A stretch of 64,000 bases of DNA from the IMG/VR virus record IMGVR_UViG_3300005537_000024, positions 8,562 to 72,561 of that record; one strand, written 5' to 3'. The position numbers and the translations under genes are program-made. A model generated the notes under the pieces. That model ran no database searches and was not told the DNA's origin. It saw only the letters and a list, made by a program, of their open reading frames with translations. Shown here piece by piece: positions 26,142-59,436 of this stretch; position 1 is the stretch's first letter, and each line of letters starts with the position of its first letter. This stretch comes from a virus.

Positions 26142-26525
26142 ATGAAGAAGCTCGTCCTGACCGTGCCGATCCTCGCGGCCGTCGCCCTCACGTTCTTCGC
26201 CGTAGTGGGGCCGCCAGGCGCGCGGGCGCAGAACGGCCTCCGGCAGGTCCCGCTCGGGTTCTGCCCGCTGTCCTCGATGACCTCCTCGACGGGGCTCGCG
26301 AGCTGCTCGGGGGGCATCCCGGCCGGGACGACGTACGCGGTCATCTGCGCGTACACGGCCGGCATAGTCTGGCGGGACGACGGCACGGCTCCGACCGGGA
26401 CGCCCGGGAGCGGCGGGCAGGGGCTCGGCGCGGGCTCGTGCATCCCGTACAACGGCACGTTCACGGCGATCCGCTTCATCCAGCAGGCCACCGGGGCGCT
26501 CCTCGGGGTCACATTCTACCAATAG
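26142..26525 (+). CDS. signal-peptide-bearing small beta protein (paralog of the 53308 C-terminus)
   Basis: MKKLVLTVPILAAVALTFFAVVGPPGARA|Q; 4 Cys; DDGTAPT...FIQ. Confidence 0.8.
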   Translation: MKKLVLTVPILAAVALTFFAVVGPPGARAQNGLRQVPLGFCPLSSMTSSTGLASCSGGIPAGTTYAVICAYTAGIVWRDDGTAPTGTPGSGGQGLGAGSCIPYNGTFTAIRFIQQATGALLGVTFYQ

Positions 26526-26535
26526 GTCCCCGCAC

Positions 26536-29500
26536 ATGACTCGTGGAAAACGTTGGCTGGCGCTCCTCGGCCTCCTCGGCCTCGCGGCGGTCTCGCTCGC
26601 GCAGGTGCCGAACGGCGGCCCGATGGTTCCGTCCGTCCCGTTCCCGCTCGCGGCGTCGAACGAGCTTGCGGACTGCGCGCCGTCGACCAGCTGCAGGAGC
26701 AACATCGGCCTCGATCCCTCGGTCTCGACCACGGACGGGTGGGGGGCGGCCGGCAACGCGATCTCGGCGACGTTCGTCGCCTGCTACACGAACAACGGCT
26801 CGTTCTGCGGCGGCCAGGCGTTCAACATCGTCAGCTTCCCGACGACCCAGAACGGCTCGCAGTCGACCACCGTGACGGGAACGTTGGGCGGGAGCGTGAT
26901 CACGCTTCAGTCTGGATGGTGCCGGTCGGAGATGGCCGGGTCGCCGATCTACATCCCCGGGGCCGGCCTCGGCGGGGCGCCGCTGTTCACAAAGATCGTC
27001 TCGTGCATCAGCACGCAGCCGTCGGTCGCGGCGTCGATCGAGACGCCTATGTCCGTCGTCCCGAGCGGGACGGTGACGGTCTCTTACGGGGCGCAGGCGC
27101 TCAACGGCGGAACGGGCTGGCAGCAGACGGACGTCGGGAAGGGGATCTACCTCGGCAACTCGGCGGGCGGCCAGCTCGGCGGCACGTTCACGATCACCGC
27201 GGTCACTTCTGGCCTGAATATAACGCTCAGCTCAAACGTTTCGTCGATCAACAACAGCACGGCCTCGAACTTCGTGTGGGGGACCGACGACAGCACCGCG
27301 GTTAGCAACGCCTGCGCCGCAGCCGCGGCGATCCCGTCGCGGCAGCTCCAGGTCCCGCTGAAGCACTTCGTCCCATCGCTCTCGGCGATCTGCTACAACG
27401 TCCGCCTGCGCGGCTCCGGTGCGCTCATGAGCACGGAGTTCGGCCTTCCGGTATCGAGCGGCGCGGGCGCCGGCATCGTGCAGGAGTTCGTCGTCCCGTA
27501 CGACGCGCCGCCGGCGCAGGGGCCGCGCCGCGAGGTGATCGCCGCGCGCGACCTCAACCAGTGCAGGCTCGCCGGCCCCAACCCGATCATCGTCCAGTCG
27601 GGCGACAGCCTCGAGCAGCTCGTGCCGAACGAGCTGTCCGGCCTCGGGACCTACCCGGGATCGTTCAAGGCGGCGTTCCTGCGGCAGAACCAGCGGACGC
27701 TCTGGCCGACCTTCCGCAACGCCGCGGCCGGCGGGGCGCAGTACACCAACTTCGACGGCAACCCGAACCAGGCGACCGGCGACGTCCTCACGTCGACGTC
27801 GACGCCGTGGCTCACGCAGATCGCGGCCGTCAACCCGTGCCTCGTGATCAACGGCATGGGGAACAACGACGGCGCTGGGCTCTCGATCCCGGCCCTCGTC
27901 GACAGCTACGTGAAGATGACGACGCCGGGCGCGGTCTTCGCGACGCCGCCGGACTTCATCTACGTAACGCACCACCCCTACAGCCGCATCAACAATAGCA
28001 ACATCGACGCGTGGGAAGGTGACGAGTACGCCTCCGGCTACATCTGCTCGTTCGCCCACGTCATGGGGCGTCCGTGCATAGACGGCGCGCGCGAGGGCGA
28101 GAAGCACCTATTCGGGATCGACCCCGGCGCGATGCGGATGACCCGCCGGTACGACGTCCCCTACAACACCAACAACATGGCCCTGCCGTACTCGCTCTCC
28201 GGGTCCGTCTACGGCCACTCGGCGCAGTTCTTCAAGAGCGGGCAGAACGGCGCGACGTTCTGGGCGAACTTCACTGGCAACGGCGGCGTGACGGACCCGC
28301 GCGGCAACTTCATCGCGTTCCGGGTCGGCAAGAACTCCGACAACGTCGTGTGGCTGTTCTACAACGGGACGAACATCGGCTACGAGTGCGACCCGTCGGC
28401 GGGCCTTCCCGGCCTCGGCTGCGACGGCCCGAACGGCCAGCCCCCCGTCGTCCCTTCGCTCCTGAGCAACGTCACGGTCGCCAACACGGGCGGCGGGGGC
28501 GTCGCCCAGGTCTCGACCTCGACCGCGGTCTTGCAGCCTTGCACGGTCGGCGGGACGGTCGCGATCCCGGGCGCAGGCGCGGTGCTGACGCCGCCCGGTT
28601 ATACCAGCTACACGGCGCCGCTCGTCACGACGGTCACGGCCTGCAATTCGACCTCCCTCATGACCCTCGCGGTCGCCGCGACGACGACCTACGCGGCGCA
28701 GTCCGGCTTCGTGATGTTCGGGAACCCGGTCACCTACTCCAACGTGACCGACGCCTCGAACTGCACGAACGAGCCCTTCGGCTTCGAGGTCAACTTCGAC
28801 ACGCTCAGGGTCTGGTTCTGCTCGACGAACCAGATCGTCTACGAAGGCCCGGTGATGCGGCCGCGGGGGCTCTACCAGCCGTCGATCTTCACCGGCGGCA
28901 ACCGGCCCTCGTTTACGGTCGGGGTCGACATTAACGGCGGCACGACGTTCCAGACGCTTCGCCCCAACCCGAGCCAGATCACGTTCAACGACGCCGAGGT
29001 TAGCGGCCCCGCGAGCAACGGCCCTCTGTCGAACCAGACCTACTCCGGCCCCGACGGCGGCGACGGCAACAACCACAACACGATGCGGTTCGGGACGCGG
29101 GTCATCGCGCCCCTGTTCGACGCGCAGGACCTTTCGATCGCGCCCGCGTATGTCGGGCCGGCGAACAAGCCGGCGCTCGGCCTCGGAATCCCGCAGGCGC
29201 GGACGATGGCGCTGTTCGGGGATAGCATTTTCCAGGGCAACGACACGATCAACCTCAGCAACTCGTCGTGCTCGTCTGGCAACTGCGCCGCCACCCTCGA
29301 CGGCGGCTACGGGACGTTCGCTAGCGCGTATTCCGGCTACAGGGTGCTGCGGGTCCCGAACACGGGCAACTGCTCGCTAAACGGGTCGACCTCAGCGATC
29401 ATGGTCAACTACGTGAGCTGCGTCCTGGCGCTCAGGCCCGACGTGGTCATGATGGAGATCGGCGGGAACGACGCGGCCGGGAGCACGGCCTGCGCCACGG

Positions 29501-30471
29501 TCACGGCCACCAACCGGCAGATCTACAAGGCGTTCATGCAGGCTGGGATCGCCGTGATCAAGTACGGCGTCTACCCGCGCGGCGGCGGGAGCGCGTTCAC
29601 GACCGCGCAGGCGAACTTGGCCCAGTGCTACAATCTGGAGGACAAGCGGTTCGCCGAGGGGGTCGGGAACAACGGGTTCTACTTCGTCGACCTCGACCCG
29701 CTGTACGTCTCCCCCGGCGGCGGGACGACGTGGACGATCAACACGAACTGCCTCAAGGACCTCTTCCACCCCGGGACCTCCTGCGCCTCGGCGGGCGGGT
29801 ACGCGGGCGCGCAGATCATCAACCAACTTTTCCCGCCCGGCCGCCAGCCGATCTTCACGAACGCGGATGTCTACGACGGGACGAATAACCCGGGCGGCAA
29901 CCTCCTCCCGAACGGGATCTTGACCGGCTCGGGCGGGTCGGCGCCGACTAGCGGGTGCACGGGTTCGACCGTCAACAATTCGAGCCTGACCGGCAACAAC
30001 CTCATCGGAACGACCTGCGCGGGGTCGACGCAGACGCTCGCCGACGGCCGGGGGGCGCAGATCATCACGGTCGGCGGGACGGGCTCCGGCTCGAACGGTT
30101 TCCTGTCCTGGGCCATGAACTCTGCGACCCCGTCGAGCGTCGCGATCGGCGACGTGCTCGAGGCCGAGTGCTGGCTAAACCTCGGCGCCAATAGCAACAT
30201 CGCCGCCGTCGACGTGCAGATGCAGACGATCGAAAGCTCGACCCTTTTCGTTCAGCACGGCGGGTCGGTCTCGACGCTCACGCTGCCGATGCCGTCGGCG
30301 GGCTACGCGACCGGGACGTGGACGCCGTTCCGGACGCCGCGGCGCACGATGACTGCGATCCCCACGGTCGCCGGCATCAACATCGGCTTCAGCTACGTCT
30401 CTCCCCTCGCCACCACGGTTTCCGGCACGCTCGGCATCACGAGCTGCTCGCTCAGAAAGGTCCTGTCGTGA
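26536..30471 (+). CDS. large signal-peptide-bearing spike/fibre-like protein with two SGNH/GDSL esterase domains
   Basis: MTRGKRWLALLGLLGLAAVSLA|Q; GTDDSTAV spike-like motif; GDSL..GNND..DGNNH and GDSI..GGND..DLFHP; 30 Cys. Confidence 0.85.
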   Translation: MTRGKRWLALLGLLGLAAVSLAQVPNGGPMVPSVPFPLAASNELADCAPSTSCRSNIGLDPSVSTTDGWGAAGNAISATFVACYTNNGSFCGGQAFNIVSFPTTQNGSQSTTVTGTLGGSVITLQSGWCRSEMAGSPIYIPGAGLGGAPLFTKIVSCISTQPSVAASIETPMSVVPSGTVTVSYGAQALNGGTGWQQTDVGKGIYLGNSAGGQLGGTFTITAVTSGLNITLSSNVSSINNSTASNFVWGTDDSTAVSNACAAAAAIPSRQLQVPLKHFVPSLSAICYNVRLRGSGALMSTEFGLPVSSGAGAGIVQEFVVPYDAPPAQGPRREVIAARDLNQCRLAGPNPIIVQSGDSLEQLVPNELSGLGTYPGSFKAAFLRQNQRTLWPTFRNAAAGGAQYTNFDGNPNQATGDVLTSTSTPWLTQIAAVNPCLVINGMGNNDGAGLSIPALVDSYVKMTTPGAVFATPPDFIYVTHHPYSRINNSNIDAWEGDEYASGYICSFAHVMGRPCIDGAREGEKHLFGIDPGAMRMTRRYDVPYNTNNMALPYSLSGSVYGHSAQFFKSGQNGATFWANFTGNGGVTDPRGNFIAFRVGKNSDNVVWLFYNGTNIGYECDPSAGLPGLGCDGPNGQPPVVPSLLSNVTVANTGGGGVAQVSTSTAVLQPCTVGGTVAIPGAGAVLTPPGYTSYTAPLVTTVTACNSTSLMTLAVAATTTYAAQSGFVMFGNPVTYSNVTDASNCTNEPFGFEVNFDTLRVWFCSTNQIVYEGPVMRPRGLYQPSIFTGGNRPSFTVGVDINGGTTFQTLRPNPSQITFNDAEVSGPASNGPLSNQTYSGPDGGDGNNHNTMRFGTRVIAPLFDAQDLSIAPAYVGPANKPALGLGIPQARTMALFGDSIFQGNDTINLSNSSCSSGNCAATLDGGYGTFASAYSGYRVLRVPNTGNCSLNGSTSAIMVNYVSCVLALRPDVVMMEIGGNDAAGSTACATVTATNRQIYKAFMQAGIAVIKYGVYPRGGGSAFTTAQANLAQCYNLEDKRFAEGVGNNGFYFVDLDPLYVSPGGGTTWTINTNCLKDLFHPGTSCASAGGYAGAQIINQLFPPGRQPIFTNADVYDGTNNPGGNLLPNGILTGSGGSAPTSGCTGSTVNNSSLTGNNLIGTTCAGSTQTLADGRGAQIITVGGTGSGSNGFLSWAMNSATPSSVAIGDVLEAECWLNLGANSNIAAVDVQMQTIESSTLFVQHGGSVSTLTLPMPSAGYATGTWTPFRTPRRTMTAIPTVAGINIGFSYVSPLATTVSGTLGITSCSLRKVLS

Positions 30472-31025
30472 AGCGACACCTCACCGCCCTCCTCGTCGGG
30501 ACGGCTCTCGCGCTCGCGCCGGCGATCGCCGCGGCGCAGAACATGGGGGCGTCGGGCTACTACGGCGGCCCCCCCGGCGCCGGCCAGCAGCTCGGGGCGC
30601 AGAGCAACGCGCAGGCGGTCGCCGGGAACGTCGGCGAGCCGCTCTCGAACTCGCTCGCCTCCGGCTCGGCGATCACGTACTCGACCGGGACGGCGGCGAA
30701 CATCACGAACATCACGAGCCTGACGCCCGGCCGCTGGGAGGTGTGGGGGACCTGCGCCTTCACGTTCGGCGGGACGACAGTGGTAACGCAGGAGAGCTGC
30801 GGGATCAGCACGACGTCGGCGACGCAGCCCGGCCTCGCGTCGGGGGCGGAGGGGCAGCTGGCCACGGGCGCGGGGTTCACGGGAGGCGCCGACAACACCG
30901 TGTTCAGCGGCGTCACGCCGATCGCCGTCTCCGCGCCGACGGTCGTCTACCTCGTCGGGACGTGCGCGTTCACGACGTCGACGTGCAAGGGCTACGGGCA
31001 GATCCAGGCGGTGCGGAGGCCGTGA
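30468..31025 (+). CDS. signal-peptide-bearing fibre-tip-like beta protein
   Basis: MKRHLTALLVGTALALAPAIAAA|Q; GNVGE...LTPG.W.V.G...VYLV...I.AVR; 4 Cys. Confidence 0.8.
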   Translation: MKRHLTALLVGTALALAPAIAAAQNMGASGYYGGPPGAGQQLGAQSNAQAVAGNVGEPLSNSLASGSAITYSTGTAANITNITSLTPGRWEVWGTCAFTFGGTTVVTQESCGISTTSATQPGLASGAEGQLATGAGFTGGADNTVFSGVTPIAVSAPTVVYLVGTCAFTTSTCKGYGQIQAVRRP

Positions 31026-32353
31026 CCAAGCGGCTCGCCCTCGCGCTCGCCCTCCTCCTCGCCGCGCCCGCAGGCGCGCAGACGATCGGGGACCTCGTCG
31101 CCGTCGGCCCTTCTCAGCTCCAGACGAGCGACGCGGCGTCGGCCTGCGCCGCGCAGGGCTATTGCAACGCCCCGCTCGGGCTCAACTTCACCGGCTCGAT
31201 CACCTACGGGAGCGGGGCTGGTTCTCCGAGCGGCCCCGCGAACGCGCTCATATGGGCCGGCGGGAACGGCGCGTACGTGCCCGCGACCGGCGTCTGCGCG
31301 CTGACGACCGGCCAGCTCTGCGCCTACGTGAGCTTCGCGTTCCTCGACCAGGTCGACGCGTCGGCGAACTTCAACGGCCTCGCCGCCTTCGTGATCCAGG
31401 ACGTCGTGCAGGCGCCGGCCAAGGGGGGGCGCGGCGTCTTCAACACCTACTTCACCTACCAGGGTTCGGCCGATACGAACCAGCAGTACGGCACCGGCTC
31501 CTCGTACGTGAAGGCGATCGCCAACAACGGCGGTACGAGCCTGGCCGCGGCCGGTGCTCTGTTCGGCGGCAACCCGTTCGTCGACTTTCAGCCGGGCGCG
31601 ACGTTCTGGGCGCAGGGGATCGGCATCGAGACGGACATGCGCATCATGAACGGCGCGCAGGTCCGTGAGATGATCTTCCACCAATACGTGCACGAGTTCA
31701 ACTACACGCAGCCCCCGCAGTTCGCGGTCGGGCTTTCGGTCAACGCGCAGACGGCCTGGAAGGGGACCGGCTTCATAAGCGGGACGACGTTCGACGCGGT
31801 CACGTCGACCTTCGGGCAGCTGCTCGTCGGGCACACCCTCCAGGGGACGGGGATCGCGCCCGGCACGGTCATAACGGCCTACCAGGGCGGCTCGGGGGGG
31901 ACCGGGACCTACACGGTCAACATCAACCAGAACGTCGGGAACATCAATTCGACGGTCGCGACGTGGGGCAACCCGGTCGGCCTCGACGCGATGCTGCAAG
32001 ACGGCTCGTTCGCCGGCGTCTCCGAGATCAGCGCGACCGGCGGCGTCTTCCGCTGCTTCAACACGCTGAACTCGAACCCGAGCGGCGGGGCCGGCGGCTG
32101 CGGGACGATCGGCTACGGCCTCGACTTCGGCAACTACATCGCCGTGACCGGCAACCTCCTAAACGGCCCGCAGGGCAACGGGCGGATCGACGGGAACTTC
32201 AACGTCGTCGCCGCCACGCTGACCCTGAACAGCTCCGCCTCGTTCACGGCCACGAAGACGAACTGCGGCAACCTCGCGAGCTCGACGGGATGCCTGATCC
32301 TGAAGGACAACAACGGCAATTCGGTCTACGCGCCGCTCTACGGCACCCTCTGA
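31022..32353 (+). CDS. signal-peptide-bearing fibre/spike-like protein
   Basis: MTKRLALALALLLAAPAGA|Q; Gly/Thr/Asn-rich beta content; 8 Cys in adjacent pairs; GGTGTY module. Confidence 0.8.
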   Translation: MTKRLALALALLLAAPAGAQTIGDLVAVGPSQLQTSDAASACAAQGYCNAPLGLNFTGSITYGSGAGSPSGPANALIWAGGNGAYVPATGVCALTTGQLCAYVSFAFLDQVDASANFNGLAAFVIQDVVQAPAKGGRGVFNTYFTYQGSADTNQQYGTGSSYVKAIANNGGTSLAAAGALFGGNPFVDFQPGATFWAQGIGIETDMRIMNGAQVREMIFHQYVHEFNYTQPPQFAVGLSVNAQTAWKGTGFISGTTFDAVTSTFGQLLVGHTLQGTGIAPGTVITAYQGGSGGTGTYTVNINQNVGNINSTVATWGNPVGLDAMLQDGSFAGVSEISATGGVFRCFNTLNSNPSGGAGGCGTIGYGLDFGNYIAVTGNLLNGPQGNGRIDGNFNVVAATLTLNSSASFTATKTNCGNLASSTGCLILKDNNGNSVYAPLYGTL

Positions 32354-32365
32354 ACGGAGACCCTC

Positions 32366-32821
32366 GTGAAACGACTCCTGCTCGCCGCCTTTATCCTCGC
32401 CCTCGCGTCCAACCCCGCGGCCGCGGCGGAGACGCCTCCCCCTCCCGCGCTGCACGTCGTCGACATGGCCGCCGTCCTCCGCGGCATCGACGGCAAGCCG
32501 ATCAAGGACGCGTTCCAGCAGACGGCGGCGGATCAGGCGTGCGAGAAGTGCGACGACCTAACCCTCGCCGCGGCCGTGACGCGCGTCCTCCTCATTCGCA
32601 CGAAGGACGACGCGAACATGGACCCGCTCCAGAGCTGGGCGCTCCAGGACCTCGCCCGCCGGGTCAACGCGCCCGGGCCGGTCACGCTCAACGCGCGGGA
32701 ACGCGCGGTGATCGTCGAGCGCCTGCTCAAGGTGTACGGGGGGCTCAACATGCAGTCGATCGTGCTCGGCGCTGCGATCCCGCTGGTCGACCCCGAGCGC
32801 CGCGTCCCGGAGCTCAAATGA
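32366..32821 (+). CDS. signal-peptide-bearing protein, possible fibre chaperone
   Basis: MKRLLLAAFILALASNPAAA|A; L..IDGKPIKD...LTL...LA.R...L...E...I pattern of small proteins found after phage fibres. Confidence 0.7.
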   Translation: MKRLLLAAFILALASNPAAAAETPPPPALHVVDMAAVLRGIDGKPIKDAFQQTAADQACEKCDDLTLAAAVTRVLLIRTKDDANMDPLQSWALQDLARRVNAPGPVTLNARERAVIVERLLKVYGGLNMQSIVLGAAIPLVDPERRVPELK

Positions 32822-33027: not shown

Positions 33028-33046
33028 TTCGTGTTACATCGGGCGC

Positions 33047-40807: not shown

Positions 40808-41271
40808 CCAGCGGAGTCGTCTATCGAATCGCGGTCCGAGGTGCTGAGGTCAGGTATTACATCGGGCAGGCGGTCGACTTCGCCAAAAGGAAAAAGAGGC
40901 ACCTTAACGCTCTTAGAGGCGGCTATCATCGAAACGTCGTTCTTCAGAGGCTATTCGACAAGTACGGCGAGGACGCCTTTGCGTTCGAGGTTCTACTAGT
41001 CTGTTCCCGTAAGATGCTTAGCTTCTACGAGCAGATCATCTTGGACAGCTACGGGGACAAGGCCGTGAACATCCGCAAGCTTTGTGTAGATAGCCAATTG
41101 GGCATAAAGCTCTCTCCGGAGTGTCGCGCGAAACTGTCGTCCCAGCGTATCGGAACTAAGCGATCTCTCGGCTATCGACATACTTTAGAAACCAAGGCTC
41201 ACCTTGCGCAAAGGATGCGTGCTATTAGAGCCGAGAGATTCTGGAACCACAAAGGCGAGGTGAAAACATGA
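40804..41271 (+). CDS. GIY-YIG homing endonuclease with NUMOD-like tail
   Basis: SGVVYRI...YYIGQA...R..RH...L..G.H.N..LQ..F.KYGE..F.FEVL; low GC. Confidence 0.88.
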   Translation: MTSGVVYRIAVRGAEVRYYIGQAVDFAKRKKRHLNALRGGYHRNVVLQRLFDKYGEDAFAFEVLLVCSRKMLSFYEQIILDSYGDKAVNIRKLCVDSQLGIKLSPECRAKLSSQRIGTKRSLGYRHTLETKAHLAQRMRAIRAERFWNHKGEVKT

Positions 41272-49234: not shown

Positions 49235-49237
49235 AAG

Positions 49238-50183: not shown

Positions 50184-50184
50184 C

Positions 50185-50499: not shown

Positions 50500-50503
50500 C
50501 GAG

Positions 50504-51487: not shown

Positions 51488-51497
51488 GGAGGCGACG

Positions 51498-52840: not shown

Positions 52841-52849
52841 GGGTGGCGC

Positions 52850-53311
52850 ATGGCCGCGACGCTCCAGCTAAACCCGCAGACCTGGGACCTCACGCTCGAC
52901 GAGGCGGGCAACATCGCCGTCCTCGCCGACCCGGACTCGCTCGCCCAGGACGCCGCGAGCGCGATCAAGACGTTCCTCGGAGAGTGCTACTGGGATACGA
53001 CGGTAGGCGTGAACTACGCCGCGATCCTCGGGCAGTCGCCGCCGACGATCGCGCTCCTCAAGGCGGCCTTCGTCGACGCGGCGCTCACGGTCCCCGGGGT
53101 CGCCGCGGCGCAGGTTTTCATCTCGTCGCTCTCCGACCGCACGGTATCCGGCCAGGTCCAGGTCGTGAGCTCCTCGACCGGGCAGGTTTCCGCAGCTAAC
53201 TTCGCGACCAACCTCGCGAGGGTGGTCAACCCCGCGGCCCCGCTGATTCTGGTCTCGGAATCCGGAGATCCCCTAAGCTCGGAGGGAGGAGAGATCCTCA
53301 CGTCAGGATGA
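52850..53311 (+). CDS. baseplate wedge protein (gp25/gp46-like)
   Basis: TL.L.P.TWDL.LD..GNIA, LAQD.ASAI..F.GE...DT..GV.Y. Confidence 0.85.
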   Translation: MAATLQLNPQTWDLTLDEAGNIAVLADPDSLAQDAASAIKTFLGECYWDTTVGVNYAAILGQSPPTIALLKAAFVDAALTVPGVAAAQVFISSLSDRTVSGQVQVVSSSTGQVSAANFATNLARVVNPAAPLILVSESGDPLSSEGGEILTSG

Positions 53312-53802
53312 AACGAACAGCAGCCGTCGTCCTCGCGCTCTCGCTCCTGCTCGCCGTCTACGCGTTCGCGCAGCCGACGACGCAGTCGTTCCCGAACTAC
53401 GTGCGGAGCCTCCCGCAGGCGTCCCTCCCGCTCACGGGGACCGAGATCCTCTACATGATCCAGAACGGGGAATCGGTGCAGGCGGCCTCGCTCCAGCTCG
53501 GGGGGAGCGGCGGGTCCGGGGCGCCGTACCAGTTCACGCCGTCGACCGGGGCCGACCAGCACAACCTCGCCGTCGTCTCGGCCACGCCGCTCACGGTCCC
53601 GGGCGACGCGCTGTTCGCCCAGGTGTGCGTGTCGGGCGCCGCGGTGAACTGGACGTGGACGGGGACGGCGCCGACCGCCCTGGTGGGCCAGCCGCTCGCC
53701 GCCGGGGCGTGCGAGTTCTTCTCGGGGAGGGCGGTACTCACGGCGCTGCAGTTCATCCAGAAGGTGCCGACGGCCGTCCTCGACGTGACGTACTCGAAGT
53801 GA
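53308..53802 (+). CDS. signal-peptide-bearing small beta protein
   Basis: MKRTAAVVLALSLLLAVYAFA|Q; LP.A..PLTG.E motif; C-terminus paralogous to 26142. Confidence 0.8.
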   Translation: MKRTAAVVLALSLLLAVYAFAQPTTQSFPNYVRSLPQASLPLTGTEILYMIQNGESVQAASLQLGGSGGSGAPYQFTPSTGADQHNLAVVSATPLTVPGDALFAQVCVSGAAVNWTWTGTAPTALVGQPLAAGACEFFSGRAVLTALQFIQKVPTAVLDVTYSK

Positions 53803-53812
53803 GGCGCGGCTG

Positions 53813-55687
53813 ATGGCGTCGGGAACCGCGGTCCCCCCCCCGATATTCGGACCCAACGGGTGGCAGGTGCCGCAGGCCCCGGCGATCCTCGCCGGCGTGC
53901 AGGCGGACATCACGGCCGCCTTCGGCACGACGCTCAACTTCAACTTCAATACCCCGCAGGGCCAGCTCGCCTCGAGCGAGGCGGCGATCATCAACAACGC
54001 CTATGGGGCGCTCGTCTTCCAGTTCAACCAGCTCGACCCGTCCTACGCGATCGGGCGCATGCAGGACGCCATCGCGCGCATCTACTTCCTCGACCGCGAC
54101 CCGGCGGAGCCGACGACGCTCCAGGTCTCGTGCACGGGGGCGGGCGCGTTCATCCCGGACTCGACGAACCCGAACGTCACGCCGGCGACGATCGTCGACG
54201 GGAACAACAACCTGTACACGTGCATCGGCGCCGGGAGCCTGCCGCCCGGCGGGGGGAGCGTGACGCTCGCCTTCGCGTGCACGGTCCCCGGCCCGGTCCC
54301 GGTCCCCTCGGGGGCCGGCGTCCAGATCTATCAGGCGATCCCGGGGTGGGACTCGGTCTCGGTCGTCTCGGGCGTCGAGGGCGTCGACGAGGAGGGCCGC
54401 TTCGCGCTCGAGCAGAGGCGGCAGGACTCGGTCGCCGGCAACAGCTTCGGCCCGGTCGGCGCGATCATCGGCGCCGTCGCGAACGTGCCGGGCGTGATCG
54501 ACTACTACGGCTACAACAACAATACGGCCAACCCGGTCACGGTCGGCGGCGTTACGATCGCGGCGTACTCGATCTACATCGCGGTTGCGGGCGGGTCGCC
54601 CACGGCGGTCGCGCAGGCGATCCTCTCGAAGAAGGGCGCGGGCGCGCCGATGACCGGCAACACGACGGTCACGGTCTACGACTCGAACCCCCTCTACGCG
54701 GCGCCGATCCCGTACTCGATCACGTACGAGATCCCGCCGGCCTTCCAGGTCCTCTACAAGGTGACGATCGCGAACGGCCCGCTCGTGCCGAACAACGCGA
54801 CGCAGCTCGTCCAGGCGGCGCTCCTCGCGGCCTTCGTCGGGAACGCGCTCTCGGCGTCGTTCACGGGGCAGGTCACCGGGACCTCGCTGAACGTGACGGC
54901 GGTGACGTCGGGGACGATCGTCGTCGGTCAGACCATATCGGACGCGACGAACGCGCTCGCGCCGAACACCACGATCACGGGGCTCGGGACCGGCAACGGC
55001 GGCCTCGGGACCTACATGGTCAGCGTGTCGCAGAACGTCCCCTCGGAGGCCATGACGGCGTCGCCGCCGAGCGGGGTGGCGGTCGTGCCGCGCGCGCGGA
55101 TCGCGACCACGCTCTATGCGACGCAGTACGCGGCGCCGGTGAGCCTCCTGGGCCCGTGGGCGCTGGTCGCGGCGCTCGGGATCGGCTCGGCCAACACGCC
55201 GGACGCGGTGATCGTCGGGAACATCTCCGGGAGCACGCTCACGGTCGCGTCGGTCACGTCGGGGTCGGTGGCGATCGGCCAGAACCTCGTCGACCCGCTC
55301 GGCCTAACCGTGACGGGGACCTACATCACGGCGGGGAGCGGGACGACCTGGACGGTCAACAACCCGCAGACGGTCGGCGGCGCGACCTTTACCGGGACGG
55401 GGAGCGGCACGAACCTCACGGCGAGCGGGGTGACCGGCTCGATCGGCGTCGGCGACGTAATCACGGGGACCGGGGTCCCGGCGAACACGACGATCGTCTC
55501 GCAGACCTCCGGCCCCGCGGGCGGCAACGGCGTCTACGTCACGAACAACGCCACTACGTCGTCGGGCGCCTCGCTGCTGGCGAACTCGACGTTTACGTGC
55601 TCCTCGGCCGACCAGTCGAAGGTTATCGTGAACGCGAACCAGGTGCCGCAGCTCTCGGCGTCCAACATCACGGTCGCGTTCGTATGA
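53813..55687 (+). CDS. baseplate J-like protein with three inserted beta modules
   Basis: TPQGQLA.S, DP..A.GRMQDAI.RIYF..R, IYQ.IPGWD.V, E.R...E.RR..SVA, SIY.AV.GG. Confidence 0.92.
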   Translation: MASGTAVPPPIFGPNGWQVPQAPAILAGVQADITAAFGTTLNFNFNTPQGQLASSEAAIINNAYGALVFQFNQLDPSYAIGRMQDAIARIYFLDRDPAEPTTLQVSCTGAGAFIPDSTNPNVTPATIVDGNNNLYTCIGAGSLPPGGGSVTLAFACTVPGPVPVPSGAGVQIYQAIPGWDSVSVVSGVEGVDEEGRFALEQRRQDSVAGNSFGPVGAIIGAVANVPGVIDYYGYNNNTANPVTVGGVTIAAYSIYIAVAGGSPTAVAQAILSKKGAGAPMTGNTTVTVYDSNPLYAAPIPYSITYEIPPAFQVLYKVTIANGPLVPNNATQLVQAALLAAFVGNALSASFTGQVTGTSLNVTAVTSGTIVVGQTISDATNALAPNTTITGLGTGNGGLGTYMVSVSQNVPSEAMTASPPSGVAVVPRARIATTLYATQYAAPVSLLGPWALVAALGIGSANTPDAVIVGNISGSTLTVASVTSGSVAIGQNLVDPLGLTVTGTYITAGSGTTWTVNNPQTVGGATFTGTGSGTNLTASGVTGSIGVGDVITGTGVPANTTIVSQTSGPAGGNGVYVTNNATTSSGASLLANSTFTCSSADQSKVIVNANQVPQLSASNITVAFV

Positions 55688-55779
55688 GCGGCCTTTTTAC
55701 GATATACTCCGCAACGCAAGACCGCCGATTCCTGGCAGGGAACCGACGGTCTCTAACCGCGACCCGAAGGGACCGGATC

Positions 55780-56340: not shown

Positions 56341-57006
56341 ATGTCTGGGCCAAATTATCCGCGCTACGCAACGGCCTCGGCGCCTGGCCAGAACGCGATC
56401 GGTACGTTCGCCGTAGGGATAAGCCCCCTCGGAGACGTTCCGCCATTCGACCAATGGAAGACCGTAATAAGTCAATACGCCAATTCCCCGATCCTCGACG
56501 GGATCATCAACGCGTTCAACGCCGCGATGGACCCGACCGAGGTCCTTGACGACTACTACGACATGATGATGAACGTCGCGACGGCCGTGGGGTACGGCCT
56601 CGACGTGTGGGGCCGCATCGTCGGCGTCAAGCGGACGCTCTCGATCCCGGGCAGCGTGACTTTCTTCGGTTTCGAGGAGGCGGGGAGCTGGACGGGGTTC
56701 GGCCAGGGCGGGTTCTTCACGGGGTCGGGGGCGACGACGAACTTCGTTCTCTCCGACTCCGACTTCCGCAAGCTCGTGTACGCGAAGGCGGCGGGGAACA
56801 TCAGCGACGGGTCGATCCCGGGGGTCAACCAGATACTCCTGACGCTTTTCCCGGGCCGGGGCATCTGCTATGTGCAGGACAACCAAAACATGAGCCTGGC
56901 CTACGTCTTCAAGTTCCCGCTGACGACCGTCGAACTCGCGATCCTCGGGCAGAGCAACGTGCTCCCGAACCCCGCCGGCGTCGCGGTCAGCATCGTCCAC
57001 CAGTGA
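56341..57006 (+). CDS. baseplate protein (DUF2612-type)
   Basis: T.ISQYANSP.L, TA.GYGLDVWGRIVGV.R, LSD..FR.L..AKA..NI, LP.PAGV. Confidence 0.9.
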   Translation: MSGPNYPRYATASAPGQNAIGTFAVGISPLGDVPPFDQWKTVISQYANSPILDGIINAFNAAMDPTEVLDDYYDMMMNVATAVGYGLDVWGRIVGVKRTLSIPGSVTFFGFEEAGSWTGFGQGGFFTGSGATTNFVLSDSDFRKLVYAKAAGNISDGSIPGVNQILLTLFPGRGICYVQDNQNMSLAYVFKFPLTTVELAILGQSNVLPNPAGVAVSIVHQ

Positions 57007-57013
57007 GGGCGCC

Positions 57014-58291
57014 ATGAGGAAACTGTTCTGGGCCGCTGTCATCCTGCCGCTGATGGTCTTCGCCGCGGCGGCGATGCAGCAATCGCAGGTCCCGCCGAAG
57101 TTCCCGGTCCCGTGGGGCAACTCGGCGACCGCGACCTACCTCCGCTCGATCCCGGTCCCGTCGCAGATCGGTATCCAGAACTGCGCGGCGTCGCTCACCG
57201 ACGGGTTCCCGCCGCTCACGTTCGTCCCGGCGACCGCCGGAGGGTGCCCGCCGTTCGGCGCGGACTTCAACGGCATCCTCAAGCAGATCACGCAGTGGTC
57301 GCAGTGGCAGGGCGCGGGGGCGTCGCCGACCTACGACTCGTCGTTCTCGACCTCGATCGGCGGCTACCCGAGCGGGACCGTCCTCGCGAACGCCTCGACG
57401 GCGGGGTGCTTCTGGGTCTCGACGGTCGACAACAACTCGAGCGACCCGGACACGGGCGGCGCGAACTGGTCTTCCTCGTGCCCGGGGGGCGGCGTCGGCG
57501 GCACGTCGACCGGCTCGGCCAACGCGCAGGTGGTCGCGGCGACGCCGTTCGTGAGGCGGGTCGGGAGCACGGTGACGTACGTCGCCGGGTTCTCGAACTC
57601 TGGTCCGCTCCAGGTCAACGTCAACGGCGCCGGCCTCGTCAACGTCTTCCGGCGCTCGCAGCTCGGGGCGACCATGTCGGTCGGGGGCGAGACGTTCACC
57701 GGCCAGAACGTGACGATCACGTGGGACGGGACGCGCTGGCAGTGCACGTCGTGCGCCTTCGTCCGGGTCGGCGAGGTCGTCGACATGGCGACGACGACGC
57801 TCCCCGCGGGCCACCTCGTCGTGGACGGGAGCTGCGTCTCGCAGTCCACGTACGCCGACCTTTTCTCGCTCACGGGGACCGCGTTCGGGTCCTGTTCGGC
57901 CGGCAACTTCGCCCTCCCCGACCTCCGCGGCCGGATGACGGCGGGGTACGACGGGCAGGGCACGCAGGGCGCGGCCAACAGGTTGACGAGCGGCGGCTCG
58001 TCGTGCGCGGCGACGACGATCGGCGTGGGGTGCGGGGCGCAGAACGCGACGCTCGCCCAGAACCAGCTCCCCAACGTCTCGCCCACCTTCAGCGGCAACA
58101 GCTCCGGGCAGGCGTTCTACACGGGGACCCCCGGCCAGTGCGTCCGCGCCGACGCGTGCAGCTACCAGATCGCCACCGCGTCGGTGGCCACGCCGTCCGG
58201 GACGGTCAGCTCGATCAACGGAGGCGTGACGCAGCAGACGACGCCGGTCGTGCCGCCCATCCAAACCGTGACGAAAGTCATCAGGTTCTGA
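57014..58291 (+). CDS. tail fibre protein with collar domain, preceded by a signal peptide
   Basis: MRKLFWAAVILPLMVFAAAA|MQQSQVPPKFPVPWG; GFPPLT, PP.G.DFNGIL, IGGYP.G, W.STVDNN..DPD; collar DGS.VS..TYA.LF...F.LPDLRGR; 12 Cys. Confidence 0.9.
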   Translation: MRKLFWAAVILPLMVFAAAAMQQSQVPPKFPVPWGNSATATYLRSIPVPSQIGIQNCAASLTDGFPPLTFVPATAGGCPPFGADFNGILKQITQWSQWQGAGASPTYDSSFSTSIGGYPSGTVLANASTAGCFWVSTVDNNSSDPDTGGANWSSSCPGGGVGGTSTGSANAQVVAATPFVRRVGSTVTYVAGFSNSGPLQVNVNGAGLVNVFRRSQLGATMSVGGETFTGQNVTITWDGTRWQCTSCAFVRVGEVVDMATTTLPAGHLVVDGSCVSQSTYADLFSLTGTAFGSCSAGNFALPDLRGRMTAGYDGQGTQGAANRLTSGGSSCAATTIGVGCGAQNATLAQNQLPNVSPTFSGNSSGQAFYTGTPGQCVRADACSYQIATASVATPSGTVSSINGGVTQQTTPVVPPIQTVTKVIRF

Positions 58292-58293
58292 AT

Positions 58294-59436
58294 ATGAGGA
58301 CGCTCCGAGCCACCCTCCTCGCCGCGGCCCTCGCGCTCCCCTGCGCCGAGGCGTCCGCGCAGTCGAACCCCGGATGGTCGTACGGCTACGTCCCGACGGC
58401 CTCGCAGTGGAACGCGCAGTGGGCGTCGAAGCAAGACTTCCTCGGGGCGTCGCCGCTCCTAACGACAGGCGGGATCATCAACGGGCCGGTCACGTTCAAC
58501 GGGTTCCCGGTGACGTTCTCGAGCGCCCCACTCATAATCTCCGGCAACCTCTCGCAGTCTGCGTGGACGACTAGCGGCATCCGCATCCAGGGCGTCGTCG
58601 GGACGATGACGGATACGACCTCGGCGGGGACCGTCGCCGCGGCCTACACGGACGTGCTCGGCGGGAACACGATCGCGGCGTCGAACGTCGTCACGTTCAC
58701 GAACTACGTCAGCAGCTACTACCGGCAACCGGTCGCCGGGGCGAACGTGACCTTCACGCACGGGTGGGCGCTCGGGGCGGACAGCGTGTTCGTGGGGGCG
58801 GGGACCGCGACCGTCCCGCCGATCGGCCTCACCGCGGGGACGAACCTCACGACGGCGGTCGCCGGCGCGCACGAGTACGACGGGAACGCGTTCTACCAGA
58901 CGCCGGGCGCCTCGAACCGGGGGGTGACCGCGAACTACCACTTCGAGCGCCTGACCTCGAACTACACGCTCGGCAACGTCAACACGCCGCAGAAGGCGTT
59001 CAACGGGACGGCGAGCGGGCAGATCACGGTCCCGCCCGCGACCGGCTACCGGTTCAAGCTCAAGTACCTGATCACGAACACGGGGACGACGAGCCACCAG
59101 TGGCAGGTCCTCCTCGGCGGGACGGCGACGCTAACTTCCGGGACGATGTCGTGCAACGCGGTCTCGAGCACGAGCTCGGCGGTAGCGACGCCCGGGCTCG
59201 GCTACACTACGACGCTCGGGACGGCCTTCACGGTGACCGCCGCGAGCACGTCGGCGACGGAGAACGCGACGATCGACTGCGACGGGACCGTCAACGTCAA
59301 CGCCTCGGGCACGCTCATCCCCGAGGTCCAACTGACCGCGGCGACCGGGACCGCGGCGACGATGCTCGCCGGCAGCTTCTTCGAGATGTGGGCGGTCGGG
59401 TCGAACGCCGTCGTGAGCGTGGGAAACTGGAACTAA
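58294..59436 (+). CDS. signal-peptide-bearing second fibre-like protein
   Basis: MRTLRATLLAAALALPCAEASA|Q; W.YG.VPT..QWN..W..KQD; GT.L.T...GA.EYDG..FY. Confidence 0.8.
   Translation: MRTLRATLLAAALALPCAEASAQSNPGWSYGYVPTASQWNAQWASKQDFLGASPLLTTGGIINGPVTFNGFPVTFSSAPLIISGNLSQSAWTTSGIRIQGVVGTMTDTTSAGTVAAAYTDVLGGNTIAASNVVTFTNYVSSYYRQPVAGANVTFTHGWALGADSVFVGAGTATVPPIGLTAGTNLTTAVAGAHEYDGNAFYQTPGASNRGVTANYHFERLTSNYTLGNVNTPQKAFNGTASGQITVPPATGYRFKLKYLITNTGTTSHQWQVLLGGTATLTSGTMSCNAVSSTSSAVATPGLGYTTTLGTAFTVTAASTSATENATIDCDGTVNVNASGTLIPEVQLTAATGTAATMLAGSFFEMWAVGSNAVVSVGNWN

What the first reader, a model, noticed from the sequence alone, without database searches (positions are those of the whole stretch)
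26142..59436. Virion-module proteins with Sec signal peptides and paired cysteines: possible periplasmic assembly line for fibres and decorations
Seen: nine genes embedded in the head, neck, baseplate and fibre operons start with basic-hydrophobic-AxA signal peptides, mostly followed by Gln (26142, 26536, 30468, 31022, 32366, 41268, 53308, 57014, 58294). Hand-counted mature-chain Cys numbers are all even: 4, 30, 4, 8, 2, 4, 2, 12, 2. Core virion proteins lack signals and are Cys-poor (capsid 1, cement 0, 656-aa sheath 3). Established: tailed-phage virions assemble in the reducing cytoplasm, and fibres normally lack signal peptides. Inference: this phage exports its receptor-binding and decoration proteins for Dsb-dependent disulfide folding and adds them to particles at or after lysis, or displays them on the lysogen. 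I know of no description of this for tailed phages.
Basis: partly seen in the sequence, partly recalled or inferred. Interest (0 to 1): 0.92.

Follow-up and report, generated by a model that had tools for sequence, protein, structure and literature searches.

The report
Phage tail fibres carrying export signals
This uncultured contractile-tailed phage puts ordinary bacterial secretion signals and paired cysteines on its tail fibres and fibre-like proteins, so these parts very probably fold in the periplasm, not in the cytoplasm where the rest of the particle is built.

Summary
The window is most of a complete 72.5-kb, 68% G+C myovirus genome of the PB1/Bcep781 type. All nine ORFs start with a basic-hydrophobic-AxA leader, and the mature-chain Cys counts are as stated.

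The leaders are translated. Four starts overlap the upstream stop by 4 nt, and leader GC3 is 0.77-0.96. Related phages keep a leader of different sequence at the same place.

Leaderless homologues begin at the predicted cleavage site. Cys57 and Cys78 in the baseplate-anchor domain occur in 8 of 9 leader-bearing fibres and in 0 of 59 leaderless ones.

The 58294 family is very large, with 6478 representative clusters. Among its best 150 hits, 105 of 107 N-terminal members carry a leader, and their Cys counts are 93 even, 7 odd and 5 zero.

Cultured Burkholderia phages Bcep781, Bcep1 and BcepNY3 have the same architecture. Their records say only "possible signal peptide domain".

Export with disulfide folding is well supported. 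Attachment to the particle after the inner membrane opens is inferred, not shown. Display on a lysogen is unlikely, because the genome has no integrase.

The scan has flagged this theme before on other DNA. I found no paper describing it.

The parts
57014..58291 (+). Baseplate fibre ('fibre-1'), 425 aa. Leader is codons 1-20 (57014-57073). The mature N-domain (residues 21-152) is the conserved particle-anchoring domain. Tail-collar domain at 253-308. 12 Cys as six neighbouring pairs.
   Evidence: PF07484 E 8e-15 and phrog_12796 from residue 21. 64 of 80 related loci have a homologue: 7 with a leader, the rest starting at residue 20/21. Cultured-phage matches begin at residue 21. Cys spacing. 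Only one copy in the genome.
58294..59436 (+). Second fibre ('fib2'), 380 aa. Leader is codons 1-22. The mature chain opens with the family motif QS(N/S)PG..YG.VPT..QWN..(F/W)..KQD..GG. 2 mature Cys.
   Evidence: Alignment A1 of 20 sequences. 17 of 19 relatives carry a leader. Profile search found 6478 clusters. No Pfam, PHROG or NCBIfam family.
53308..53802 (+). Small leader-bearing protein, 164 aa, between the gp25-like wedge gene and the gpJ-like gene. Its start overlaps the upstream stop by 4 nt. Its C-terminal ~90 aa are paralogous to 26142. 2 Cys.
   Evidence: No homologue in the 80 related loci. AlphaFold2 model poor, pLDDT 49.6.
41268..41912 (+). Leader-bearing fibre-like protein, 214 aa, directly after Neck1 and a homing endonuclease. 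4 Cys. Start overlaps the upstream stop by 4 nt.
   Evidence: Its N-part matches a leader-bearing 369-aa protein at the same place (after Neck1) in relative G001. No family hit.
26142..26525 (+). Leader-bearing 127-aa protein, first gene of a five-gene insertion between the MuF-like gene and the protease/scaffold gene. 4 Cys. Paralogue of 53308.
   Evidence: The homologues in G001 (leader-bearing) and G004 lie just upstream of the terminator-like and sheath genes.
26536..30471 (+). Leader-bearing 1311-aa protein with 30 Cys. C-terminal SGNH/GDSL hydrolase (residues ~880-1309) with GDS at 895 and DxxH at 1075. N-terminal 880 aa of no known family.
   Evidence: PF13472 43.6 bits (cut-off 32.9) and phrog_6102 E 1e-34. 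Motifs. The 4 other homologues all have hydrophobic N-termini and 16-18 Cys.
30468..31025 (+). Leader-bearing 185-aa protein, 4 Cys, GTG start overlapping the upstream stop by 4 nt. Function unknown.
   Evidence: No family hit.
31022..32353 (+). Leader-bearing 443-aa protein, 8 Cys. Carries one copy (residues ~241-311) of a ~70-aa module also present in the sheath, wedge, terminator-like and 41917 proteins.
   Evidence: phrog_38233 and phrog_21413. Same families hit. No alternative in-frame start within 80 codons.
32366..32821 (+). Leader-bearing (or signal-anchored) 151-aa protein with one CxxC pair (Cys59, Cys62). Function unknown.
   Evidence: Beyond its own cluster (P0161, 99% identical, 2 members), only one homologue in 5.8 billion proteins. 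Atlas neighbours are unnamed viral proteins.
52850..53311 (+). gp25-like baseplate wedge subunit, no leader (context).
   Evidence: phrog_120.
53813..55687 (+). gpJ-like baseplate wedge protein, no leader, 4 Cys (context; it was the query that fetched the 80 related loci).
   Evidence: phrog_6.
56341..57006 (+). DUF2612 baseplate protein, no leader (context).
   Evidence: PF11041 E 4e-52; phrog_587.
59439..60266 (+). Endolysin candidate, identified only through its C-terminal PG_binding_1 domain. No leader.
61349..61687 (+). Lipoprotein (lipobox ending in Cys18), candidate outer-membrane spanin.
   Evidence: No family hit.
61716..62516 (+). Leader-bearing outer-membrane beta-barrel protein (moron). 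It points to a diderm host in Pseudomonadota.
   Evidence: PF13505 E 1e-10. Atlas neighbours are 'outer membrane immunogenic protein', Pseudomonadota.

Best explanation
The nine leaders are genuine Sec-type, signal-peptidase-I-cleaved signal peptides on fibre, spike and adhesin-type late proteins of a virulent myovirus that infects a diderm host in Pseudomonadota.

Proposed route:
1. The proteins are exported unfolded during late infection.
2. The leader is cut at the AxA site. This regenerates the N-terminus that leaderless homologues have by themselves.
3. The host's periplasmic Dsb system oxidises the cysteines, hence the even and enlarged Cys sets.

At least the two baseplate fibres (57014, 58294) are still virion parts. 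The likely neck or collar proteins (41268, and the 26142/53308 pair) probably are too. Head, tail and baseplate carry no leaders and are built in the cytoplasm, so the fibres can only dock once the two compartments merge. The most plausible moment is after the holin opens the inner membrane, while the outer membrane still holds the contents together, or in the lysate.

The large SGNH-esterase protein 26536 and its neighbours may be further appendages or free envelope-active enzymes.

What is shown by comparison: the leaders are conserved as a property, and they co-vary with the Cys signature. What is inferred: cleavage, Dsb dependence, and above all late attachment. My odds are about 0.85 for export with disulfide folding, and about 0.55 that the fibres then join the particle.
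For: 1. Leaders are translated and selected.
- Four of nine starts overlap the upstream stop by 4 nt; leader GC3 is 0.77-0.96.
- Seven related loci plus relative G004 keep a leader of divergent sequence before the conserved fibre-1 N-domain.
- The codon after the leader was read in the window and the seven loci. It is ATG in the window and L016, TTG in one, CTG or CTC in four, and TTT with an ATG two codons on in L035. A downstream start therefore cannot be the rule.

2. Cleavage-site logic.
- Leaderless homologues start exactly where the leader ends: about 56 of 64 fibre-1 homologues, cultured-phage matches from residue 21, and 2 of 19 fib2 relatives.

3. Oxidative-folding signature.
- In this genome, 11 of 11 predicted exported proteins have an even non-zero Cys number. 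The remaining ORFs have 23 even, 42 odd and 18 zero (Fisher p 5e-5).
- In three related genomes the figures are 12 even / 2 odd against 106 / 120 (p 0.004).
- In the fib2 family, 105 of 107 N-terminal members among the best 150 clusters carry a leader, with 93 even, 7 odd and 5 zero Cys (binomial p 1e-20). The 2 leaderless members have 3 and 0 Cys.

4. Co-variation inside one domain.
- Cys57 plus Cys78 occur in 8 of 9 leader-bearing and 0 of 59 leaderless fibre-1 N-domains. Cys132 plus Cys156 occur together in 2 and in no other.

5. Still virion parts.
- The fibre-1 N-domain keeps 41-74% identity to leaderless fibres.
- Its second half matches the N-terminal region of solved Acinetobacter-phage tailspikes (hmmsearch E 2e-6; Foldseek 24qi, 61 columns, rmsd 1.5, E 0.04).
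- It is the only copy in the genome.
- Leaderless fib2 genes sit in the same syntenic slot.

6. Host and lysis context.
- An outer-membrane barrel moron points to Pseudomonadota.
- There is a lipoprotein, an endolysin candidate and a 74-aa three-TM holin candidate.
- The phage encodes no DsbA or thioredoxin_4.
Against: - There is no experiment of any kind. No SignalP was available; my predictor is a home-made rule set, calibrated only by shuffles and two cultured genomes.
- Late docking is physically demanding, because lysis dilutes the partners. No tailed phage is known to me to do this.
- The leader-bearing fibre-1 proteins may be one clade. The tree needs 3 changes, but well-supported branches allow a single origin. 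The 8-of-9 against 0-of-59 contrast may therefore be one evolutionary event.
- One leader-bearing fibre-1 (L016 = G003) has no Cys at all. Nine of 23 predicted exported proteins in the relatives have none.
- The SP-negative comparison sets come from my own ORF caller and contain some spurious ORFs.
- The gpJ-like protein is about 200 aa longer than in many relatives. It could itself bind the receptor, which would make the fibres dispensable.
- For 26142-32821 nothing links the proteins to the particle. That cluster is absent between MuF and protease in G001, G003 and G004.
Confidence: 0.6

Rival explanations
1. The proteins are exported and disulfide-bonded but never join the particle. They act in the envelope of the infected cell. 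Possible roles are receptor-masking or receptor-destroying factors that stop superinfection and keep progeny from sticking to debris, or helpers of release. The SGNH esterase protein 26536 would strip or modify a surface polysaccharide from the periplasmic side.
For: 26536 carries an SGNH hydrolase with its GDS and DxxH motifs. The cluster 26142-32821 is an insertion in the head module, is absent at that place in three relatives, and matches no virion family. Phages are known to export late or early proteins that block receptors (T5 Llp, recalled, not checked here). The phage also carries an exported outer-membrane barrel moron.
Against: It does not explain why 57014 keeps the particle-anchoring N-domain at 41-74% identity to leaderless fibres, nor why that is the only copy in the genome. 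It does not explain why fib2 keeps the same mature N-terminus and gene slot as leaderless members. A fibre that never docks would be expected to lose its anchor.
Confidence: 0.25
2. The hydrophobic N-termini are not export signals in vivo. Either they are uncleaved tethers that hold fibres at the inner membrane, or export is inefficient and the cytoplasmic fraction is what gets assembled. The cysteines would oxidise only after release.
For: Sec export in bacteria is largely post-translational, so fast folding or docking could compete with it (general knowledge). The window and L016 keep a Met right after the leader. One leader-bearing fibre has no Cys.
Against: The positive n-region with AxA site predicts an N-in, passenger-out topology. 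In 4 of the 8 leader-bearing fibres examined (window plus seven loci) the codon after the leader is CTG or CTC, so there is no second start. If oxidation after release were enough, leaderless homologues, which are just as extracellular, should show the even-Cys bias too. They have 13 even, 27 odd and 7 zero. A retained 20-residue hydrophobic tail would sit on a strongly conserved N-terminus.
Confidence: 0.1
3. The proteins are lysogenic-conversion factors displayed on or secreted by a lysogen.
For: Morons with signal peptides are common in prophages (general knowledge). Some related loci come from isolate genomes (record names).
Against: The complete genome with terminal repeats has no tyrosine or serine recombinase. 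The genes sit inside late operons with overlapping starts and stops. Homing endonucleases in the structural operons fit a virulent phage.
Confidence: 0.03

Closest known systems
Burkholderia phages Bcep781 gp49 and Bcep1/BcepNY3 gp51 (genus Naesvirus), annotated 'possible tail fiber; possible signal peptide domain'
   Same: Same phage supergroup (capsid 36% identical). Same architecture: basic-hydrophobic leader, small-x-small site, Gln at +1, then the fibre N-terminal motif (..APGQ.LTAAQLN..) and GGTLTG. Mature Cys are even: 14 in gp49 as seven neighbouring pairs, 4 in gp51.
   Different: The gene sits elsewhere in the tail module, after the gp25-like gene and gp50. The baseplate fibre of these phages (gp31/gp33) has no leader. 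The annotation is a one-line remark. I could not read the 2006 genome paper (not held), so I do not know whether it says more or whether the virion proteins were mapped.
Leaderless baseplate fibres of cultured relatives (Bcep1 gp33, Pseudomonas phage Orisa03 CDS 21131-22276, Burkholderia phages phiE131 and PE067, Ralstonia phages)
   Same: The N-terminal 130-aa anchor domain is 41-53% identical to residues 21-152 of 57014. The gene slot after the DUF2612 gene is the same.
   Different: They start at the residue that follows the leader here. They have Gly and Val/Ile/Thr where the window has Cys57 and Cys78, and they are Cys-poor with odd counts common.
Coat proteins of filamentous phages (Ff pIII, pVIII) (recalled, not checked here)
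   Same: Virion proteins made with signal peptides, exported, disulfide-bonded (pIII) and assembled outside the cytoplasm.
   Different: A different virus realm. The whole Ff particle is assembled at the membrane without lysis. Here only the appendages would be exported, and the particle is a cytoplasm-built tailed phage.
Exported lysis proteins of tailed phages: Sec-dependent and SAR endolysins, spanin lipoproteins
   Same: Late phage proteins with N-terminal export signals that wait in the envelope for the holin. The window has its own lipoprotein candidate at 61349. Passages on SAR endolysins and spanins were read in PMC3765740 and PMC3556154.
   Different: Those are enzymes or membrane fusogens, not structural proteins, and they are not homologous to these fibres.
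Solved Acinetobacter-phage tailspike depolymerases (PDB 24qi, 24qj, 8opz, 5js4)
   Same: A ~60-residue subdomain of the fibre-1 anchor matches their N-terminal region (hmmsearch E 2e-6 to 7e-3; Foldseek rmsd 1.2-1.5).
   Different: Only that subdomain matches. Whether those chains start with a leader I did not check.

Membership tests
Sec-type signal peptide cleaved by signal peptidase I | Positively charged n-region, uncharged hydrophobic h-region of about 8-15 residues, small residues at -3 and -1 | tested here: met
   All nine. Home-made rules, false-positive rate 1 of 1621 internal windows.
Sec-type signal peptide cleaved by signal peptidase I | Not a lipoprotein signal (no lipobox Cys at +1) and not a Tat signal (no twin arginine before the h-region) | tested here: met
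   No lipobox was found in any flagged ORF except 61349. 26536 was not covered by that call; its leader, printed, holds no Cys. None of the nine has RR; they have KK, RK, KR or single R (read).
Sec-type signal peptide cleaved by signal peptidase I | Recognised by a trained predictor (SignalP or similar) | not testable with these tools
Sec-type signal peptide cleaved by signal peptidase I | Export and cleavage shown experimentally | not testable with these tools
   Needs PhoA or BlaM fusions and N-terminal mass spectrometry.
Substrates of periplasmic disulfide formation (even-cysteine signature of exported proteins; Dutton et al. 2008, recalled, not read here) | Exported proteins show an excess of even Cys numbers compared with the cytoplasmic proteins of the same genome | tested here: met
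   11 of 11 even against 23 even / 42 odd (p 5e-5). Relatives: 12 / 2 against 106 / 120. fib2 family: 93 even / 7 odd.
Substrates of periplasmic disulfide formation | Cysteines spatially paired in the fold | tested here: inconclusive
   Pairs co-occur in evolution (57+78, 132+156) and are sequence neighbours. The structure tool returns no coordinates, so distances could not be measured.
Phage tail fibre with tail-collar domain (PF07484; PHROG 12796) | Collar domain above Pfam's cut-off, and a full-length match to a tail-fibre PHROG | tested here: met
   57014: 55 bits against a cut-off of 24; phrog_12796 residues 21-403.
Phage tail fibre with tail-collar domain | Presence in purified virions | not testable with these tools
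   Uncultured phage.
Unnamed 'fib2' family (leader, QS.PG, YG.VPT..QWN, KQD, GGTMTG) | Conserved mature N-terminal ~100 residues, and a gene slot after the baseplate fibre | tested here: met
   58294 is the first sequence of alignment A1. Same slot in the relatives. The profile finds 670 clusters at E <= 1e-30.
SGNH/GDSL hydrolase (PF13472) | Score above the cut-off, block I GDS and block V DxxH | tested here: met
   26536: 43.6 bits against 32.9; GDS at 895 and DLFH at 1075. Activity and substrate untested.

The most novel reading that the evidence does not exclude
Tailed-phage morphogenesis can have a last, extracytoplasmic step. In a large group of mostly uncultured soil and water phages of Pseudomonadota, the receptor-binding fibres are made as Sec pre-proteins and oxidatively folded by the host Dsb system in the periplasm. 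They dock onto fibre-less, cytoplasm-built particles only after the holin has merged the two compartments. Infectivity would then depend on host Sec, signal peptidase and Dsb, and lysis timing would be part of assembly.
Probability: 0.5. Interest if true: 0.9.

Novelty: new variant of a known kind. Interest (0 to 1): 0.8.

Why it matters
Textbook assembly of tailed phages happens entirely in the reducing cytoplasm. If receptor-binding fibres go through the periplasm, several things follow:
- Host Sec, signal peptidase and Dsb become phage dependency factors, and so possible resistance routes.
- Disulfide-rich fibres would explain how soil phages get very stable adhesins.
- The interval between holin triggering and outer-membrane rupture gains a morphogenetic role.
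- Fibres of this kind would fail to fold when expressed in the cytoplasm for engineering or structural work.

The family is large: 6478 representative clusters for one fibre type alone. It is wholly unannotated. Cultured members exist (Bcep781, Bcep1, BcepNY3), so the question can be tested directly.

Tried and rejected
Dual-start idea. A long exported form and a short cytoplasmic form from the Met at residue 21 of 57014 is rejected as a general mechanism. In 4 of the 8 leader-bearing fibres examined (window plus seven loci) that codon is CTG or CTC.

Mis-called starts are rejected.

Complex prediction. The fibre-1 N-domain x3 with the fib2 mature N-domain x3 gave 'no answer' (score 0.00, controls not run). 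It counts neither for nor against binding.

Structure of 53308. The alignment had only 4 sequences and the model reached pLDDT 49.6, too poor to search with.

PDB sequence searches with 26536, 57014 and 31022 as single sequences gave 0 hits.

Relatives in viral contigs:
- 31022: one partial hit.
- 26536: none.
- MuF-like protein: 4 loci.

32366 as a possible periplasmic oxidoreductase, because of its CxxC. Beyond its own cluster it has only one homologue and its Atlas neighbours are unnamed viral proteins. The genome has no DSBA or Thioredoxin_4 match. The idea is left open and is not supported.

Host identification. The scan of bacterial genomes gave a single hit on a 59-kb contig of a metagenome-assembled genome. 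I place the host only as far as Pseudomonadota, from the outer-membrane barrel moron.

The +1 Gln as a Bacteroidota 'Q-rule' host clue (recalled) was dropped, because the host signals and the cultured examples are Pseudomonadota.

Literature. Six full-text searches returned no title or abstract describing exported tail fibres of tailed phages. I read passages only in:
- PMC3556154
- PMC3765740
- PMC5026251
- PMC2628397
- PMC12014285
All of these passages concern lysis proteins or methods. The 2006 Bcep781 genome paper is not held. Supplements were closed and were not asked for; virion proteome tables there could bear on the claim.

Full report
WHAT THE WINDOW IS

The window is bases 8562-72561 of a 72,561-bp virus record with direct terminal repeats, rated 100% complete. 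G+C is 65-72% throughout. There are no tRNA genes and no nucleotide match to cultured phages.

PHROG and Pfam scans give a complete contractile-tail virion module on the + strand:
- large terminase 18949-20610
- portal 22495-24702
- MuF-like protein 24686-25483
- protease/scaffold 33047-35659
- minor head protein 35705-36688
- major capsid protein 36784-37848
- Neck1 40361-40807
- terminator-like protein 42742-43968
- sheath 44038-46008
- tube 46018-46449
- chaperone 46664-47161
- tape measure 47678-49234
- hub 50504-51487
- gp25-like wedge 52850-53311
- gpJ-like wedge 53813-55687
- DUF2612 protein 56341-57006
- two fibre genes, followed by an endolysin candidate

The capsid protein is 36-49% identical to those of Aeromonas phage vB_AsaM-56, Pseudomonas phages of the Orisa and PB1 types, and Burkholderia phage Bcep1. 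The genome has no tyrosine or serine recombinase. Two homing endonucleases sit inside the structural operons. It therefore looks virulent.

An exported outer-membrane beta-barrel moron at 61716-62516 places the host among diderm Pseudomonadota. It matches PF13505, and its Atlas neighbours are 'outer membrane immunogenic protein' of Pseudomonadota.

THE OBSERVATION

The mature Cys numbers are 4, 30, 4, 8, 2, 4, 2, 12, 2.

No SignalP was available, so I wrote a rule-based predictor (n-region charge, uncharged hydrophobic core, small residues at -3 and -1) and calibrated it:
- It fires on 1 of 1621 internal windows of this proteome.
- It fires on a mean of 0.8 ORFs per proteome (maximum 4) when the N-termini are shuffled 200 times.
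- It fires on 2 of 94 reversed proteins.
- It fires on 11 of 94 real ORFs.
- In cultured relatives it fires on 0 of 65 ORFs (Orisa03) and 3 of 66 (Bcep1).

The starts are sound:
- Four of nine overlap the upstream stop codon by 4 nt.
- Four of the other five follow it by 2-12 nt; 26142 has no adjacent upstream gene.
- GC3 of the leader codons is 0.77-0.96, as in coding DNA of this genome.
- ORF 31022 has no other in-frame start for 80 codons.

RELATED PHAGES: THE BASEPLATE FIBRE (57014)

The gpJ-like protein fetched 80 related loci from IMG/VR. Sixty-four of them encode a homologue of the 57014 fibre.
- In seven loci (L002, L007, L008, L009, L011, L016, L035) the conserved N-domain is preceded by a leader of unrelated sequence but the same build.
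- In the remainder the ORF starts at the residue that aligns with window residue 20 or 21.
- A further relative fetched in full (G004) also has the leader.
- Cultured phages match 57014 only from residue 21 on.

I tested it on the window and the seven loci. The codon at that place is ATG in the window and L016, TTG in L008, CTG in L007 and L009, and CTC in L002 and L011. L035 has TTT there and an ATG two codons further on. An internal start is therefore not conserved, and the leader-bearing chain is the product.

RELATED PHAGES: THE SECOND FIBRE (58294)

Nineteen related loci have a homologue. Seventeen of them carry a leader followed by AxA, Gln and the motif S(S/N)PG..YG.VPT..QWN..F..KQD..GGTMTG. 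Two (L025, L027) have no leader and begin at that motif. The leaderless genes occupy the same slot next to the baseplate genes.

A profile of the 20-sequence alignment, run against 1.84 billion representative proteins, found 6478 clusters at E <= 1e-3 and 670 at E <= 1e-30.

Of the best 150, 107 have the motif near the N-terminus. The other 43 match mainly through repeats of the shaft part.
- 105 of the 107 have an upstream hydrophobic extension. My predictor passes 96, and 9 more are plain to the eye.
- 2 are leaderless.
- Gln follows the site in 81 of the 96.

Ten members that I looked up are all metagenomic. They are unnamed or 'hypothetical protein', and six of the ten clusters lie on contigs of 60-100 kb. 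No NCBIfam, Pfam or PHROG model covers the family.

Across the related loci, 26 of the 56 that extend at least 3 kb beyond the gpJ-like gene encode at least one leader-bearing protein of 150 or more mature residues within 9 kb downstream. Sixteen of these are of the fib2 type.

THE CYSTEINE SIGNATURE

Exported proteins of bacteria with a Dsb system are known to favour even Cys numbers (Dutton et al. 2008, recalled, not read here). The counts are:

| Set | Even | Odd | Zero | Test |
|---|---|---|---|---|
| This genome, predicted exported (11) | 11 | 0 | 0 | |
| This genome, remaining ORFs | 23 | 42 | 18 | one-sided Fisher p 5e-5 |
| G001, G003, G004, predicted exported | 12 | 2 | 9 | |
| G001, G003, G004, remaining ORFs | 106 | 120 | 98 | p 0.004 |
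| fib2 family, leader-bearing | 93 | 7 | 5 | binomial p 1e-20 |
| Fibre-1 family, leaderless, complete | 13 | 27 | 7 | |

Further points:
- Cys density in this genome is 2.09 per 100 residues in the exported set against 1.07 in the rest.
- The two leaderless fib2 members have 3 and 0 Cys.
- The five complete leader-bearing fibre-1 proteins among the loci have 0, 3, 4, 4 and 10 Cys. The window's has 12.
- Four other homologues of 26536 have hydrophobic N-termini and 16, 16, 18 and 18 Cys. Three are flagged as leaders. The fourth record starts inside its leader.

This matters for one rival. Fibres are extracellular after release whether or not they have a leader. If air oxidation after lysis were the cause, leaderless homologues should show the bias too, and they do not.

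CO-VARIATION INSIDE ONE DOMAIN

In an alignment of 68 fibre-1 anchor domains, Cys57 and Cys78 are both present in 8 of 9 leader-bearing proteins. Neither is present in any of the 59 leaderless ones, which have Gly and Val/Ile/Thr there. Cys132 and Cys156 occur together in the window and L008 and nowhere else.

The caveat is relatedness. On a quick maximum-likelihood tree the leader needs three changes, but the well-supported branches do not exclude a single origin. The one leader-bearing protein without the pair (L016 = G003) groups with leaderless proteins (SH-aLRT 91). That would fit a recent gain of the leader before any gain of cysteines, but it is weak evidence.

ARE THEY VIRION PARTS?

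For 57014 the case is good:
- It has a tail-collar domain and a full-length tail-fibre PHROG match.
- Its anchor domain is 41-74% identical to those of the other fibres of the family, most of them leaderless.
- Its second half matches the N-terminal region of solved Acinetobacter-phage tailspikes, by profile (E 2e-6) and in a pLDDT-76 model (Foldseek 24qi, 61 columns, rmsd 1.5, E 0.04).
- It is the only copy in the genome.
- It sits right after the DUF2612 baseplate gene.

For 58294 the argument is the conserved mature N-terminus and the slot it shares with leaderless members.

For 41268 and the 26142/53308 pair the argument is position only. Homologues in G001 and G004 lie between Neck1 and the sheath gene; the two in G001 carry leaders, and no leader was called for the one in G004. 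Two of them contain the ~70-aa module that also decorates the sheath, wedge and terminator-like proteins.

For 26536, 30468, 31022 and 32366 there is no link to the particle. The five-gene cluster is an insertion between MuF and protease that G001, G003 and G004 lack. The 26536 protein ends in an SGNH hydrolase with its GDS and DxxH motifs. It could be a spike-borne esterase or a free envelope enzyme.

MECHANISM

Shown by comparison: leaders are kept as a property while their sequence drifts, the cleavage site coincides with the natural N-terminus of leaderless homologues, and cysteines are gained in pairs where there is a leader.

Inferred:
1. Export by Sec.
2. Cleavage by signal peptidase I. 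No lipobox was found in any flagged ORF except 61349. The leader of 26536 holds no Cys, and none of the nine has a twin arginine.
3. Oxidation by host Dsb. The phage encodes none.

The hard step is how periplasmic fibres reach a cytoplasm-built baseplate whose own proteins have no leaders. My proposal is an inference only. Docking would happen after the holin makes its holes in the inner membrane and before, or while, the outer membrane fails, when both compartments are one and still enclosed. The window has:
- a soluble endolysin candidate (59439),
- a lipoprotein that could be an outer-membrane spanin (61349),
- and, just beyond the window's left edge, a 74-aa protein with three hydrophobic segments that could be the holin (G000:405-629). 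No family search confirms that last assignment.

COMPARISON WITH WHAT IS KNOWN

The closest described case is in cultured Burkholderia phages of the same supergroup. Bcep781 gp49 (692 aa) and Bcep1/BcepNY3 gp51 (521 aa) have a leader, Gln at +1, the same kind of fibre N-terminus, and 14 and 4 mature Cys. Their records carry the remark 'possible tail fiber; possible signal peptide domain'. I could not read the 2006 paper on these phages.

Six full-text searches and passages of five papers gave nothing on exported tail fibres of tailed phages.

Earlier stages of this scan have reported the same theme on other genomes. One search found 493 notes holding the search words, and the eight follow-ups listed all reached the same reading. 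Those are unchecked AI notes and I do not count them as evidence. One of them appears to concern an 89-kb relative like the G001 used here.

VERDICT

Export with oxidative folding is the best-supported reading (about 0.85). Late attachment to the particle is plausible and untested (about 0.55). Display on a lysogen is unlikely.

Noticed in passing
window 22285-24702: The portal ORF has a C-terminal stretch (residues 674-762 of the translation from 22285) that matches phrog_832, 'RNA polymerase ADP-ribosylase' (E 5.5e-6). Earlier notes of the scan read it as a portal-ART fusion.
   Followed up: no
window 33047-35659: The prohead protease/scaffold protein (870 aa) carries an N-terminal Nudix-like domain (phrog_1198 and others, residues ~27-148) ahead of the protease core at 343-776.
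   Followed up: no
window 40810-41271 and 55690-56340: Two homing-type endonuclease genes sit inside the neck and baseplate operons (phrog_314 E 3e-15; HNH phrog_99 E 1e-58).
   Followed up: no
window 31022-32353, 41917-42522, 42742-43968, 44038-46008, 53813-55687: A ~70-aa module (phrog_21413 / phrog_38233) recurs in one exported protein and in four leaderless virion proteins, including the sheath and the gpJ-like wedge. It also sits in the leader-bearing homologues of 26142 in G001 and G004.
   Followed up: partly
window 52190-52840: A leaderless 216-aa protein with 9 Cys in two repeats of a C..C...C...C pattern lies between baseplate genes. It has no homologue in the 80 related loci and no family. 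It looks like a cytoplasmic metal-binding protein, the opposite case to the exported ones.
   Followed up: no
window 61716-62516: The phage encodes an outer-membrane beta-barrel protein of the OMP_b-brl family, with a weak Porin_2 hit. G001 and G004 have leader-bearing proteins of similar size in the corresponding region, with a similar start of the mature chain; they were not scanned against Pfam.
   Followed up: partly
window 14895-15218: A small early or middle-region ORF (107 aa) has a hydrophobic N-terminus and 4 mature Cys. It is the only predicted exported protein outside the late region.
   Followed up: no
window 46664-47313: After the tail-assembly-chaperone gene (46664-47161), the best GC3 frame shifts for about 240 nt into an overlapping ORF that ends at 47313. 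This may be the usual chaperone frameshift product.
   Followed up: no
L082 (contig of a metagenome-assembled genome titled Candidatus Saccharibacteria): The only hit of the fib2 motif in 185,579 species genomes lies on a 59-kb contig. This is phage-sized, so it may be a phage contig binned with the genome.
   Followed up: no
L102 13609-15687 (Bcep781 gp49): The 14 mature cysteines of this cultured-phage fibre fall into seven sequence-neighbouring pairs (118/127, 172/192, 266/293, 327/358, 384/411, 523/552, 667/688).
   Followed up: partly
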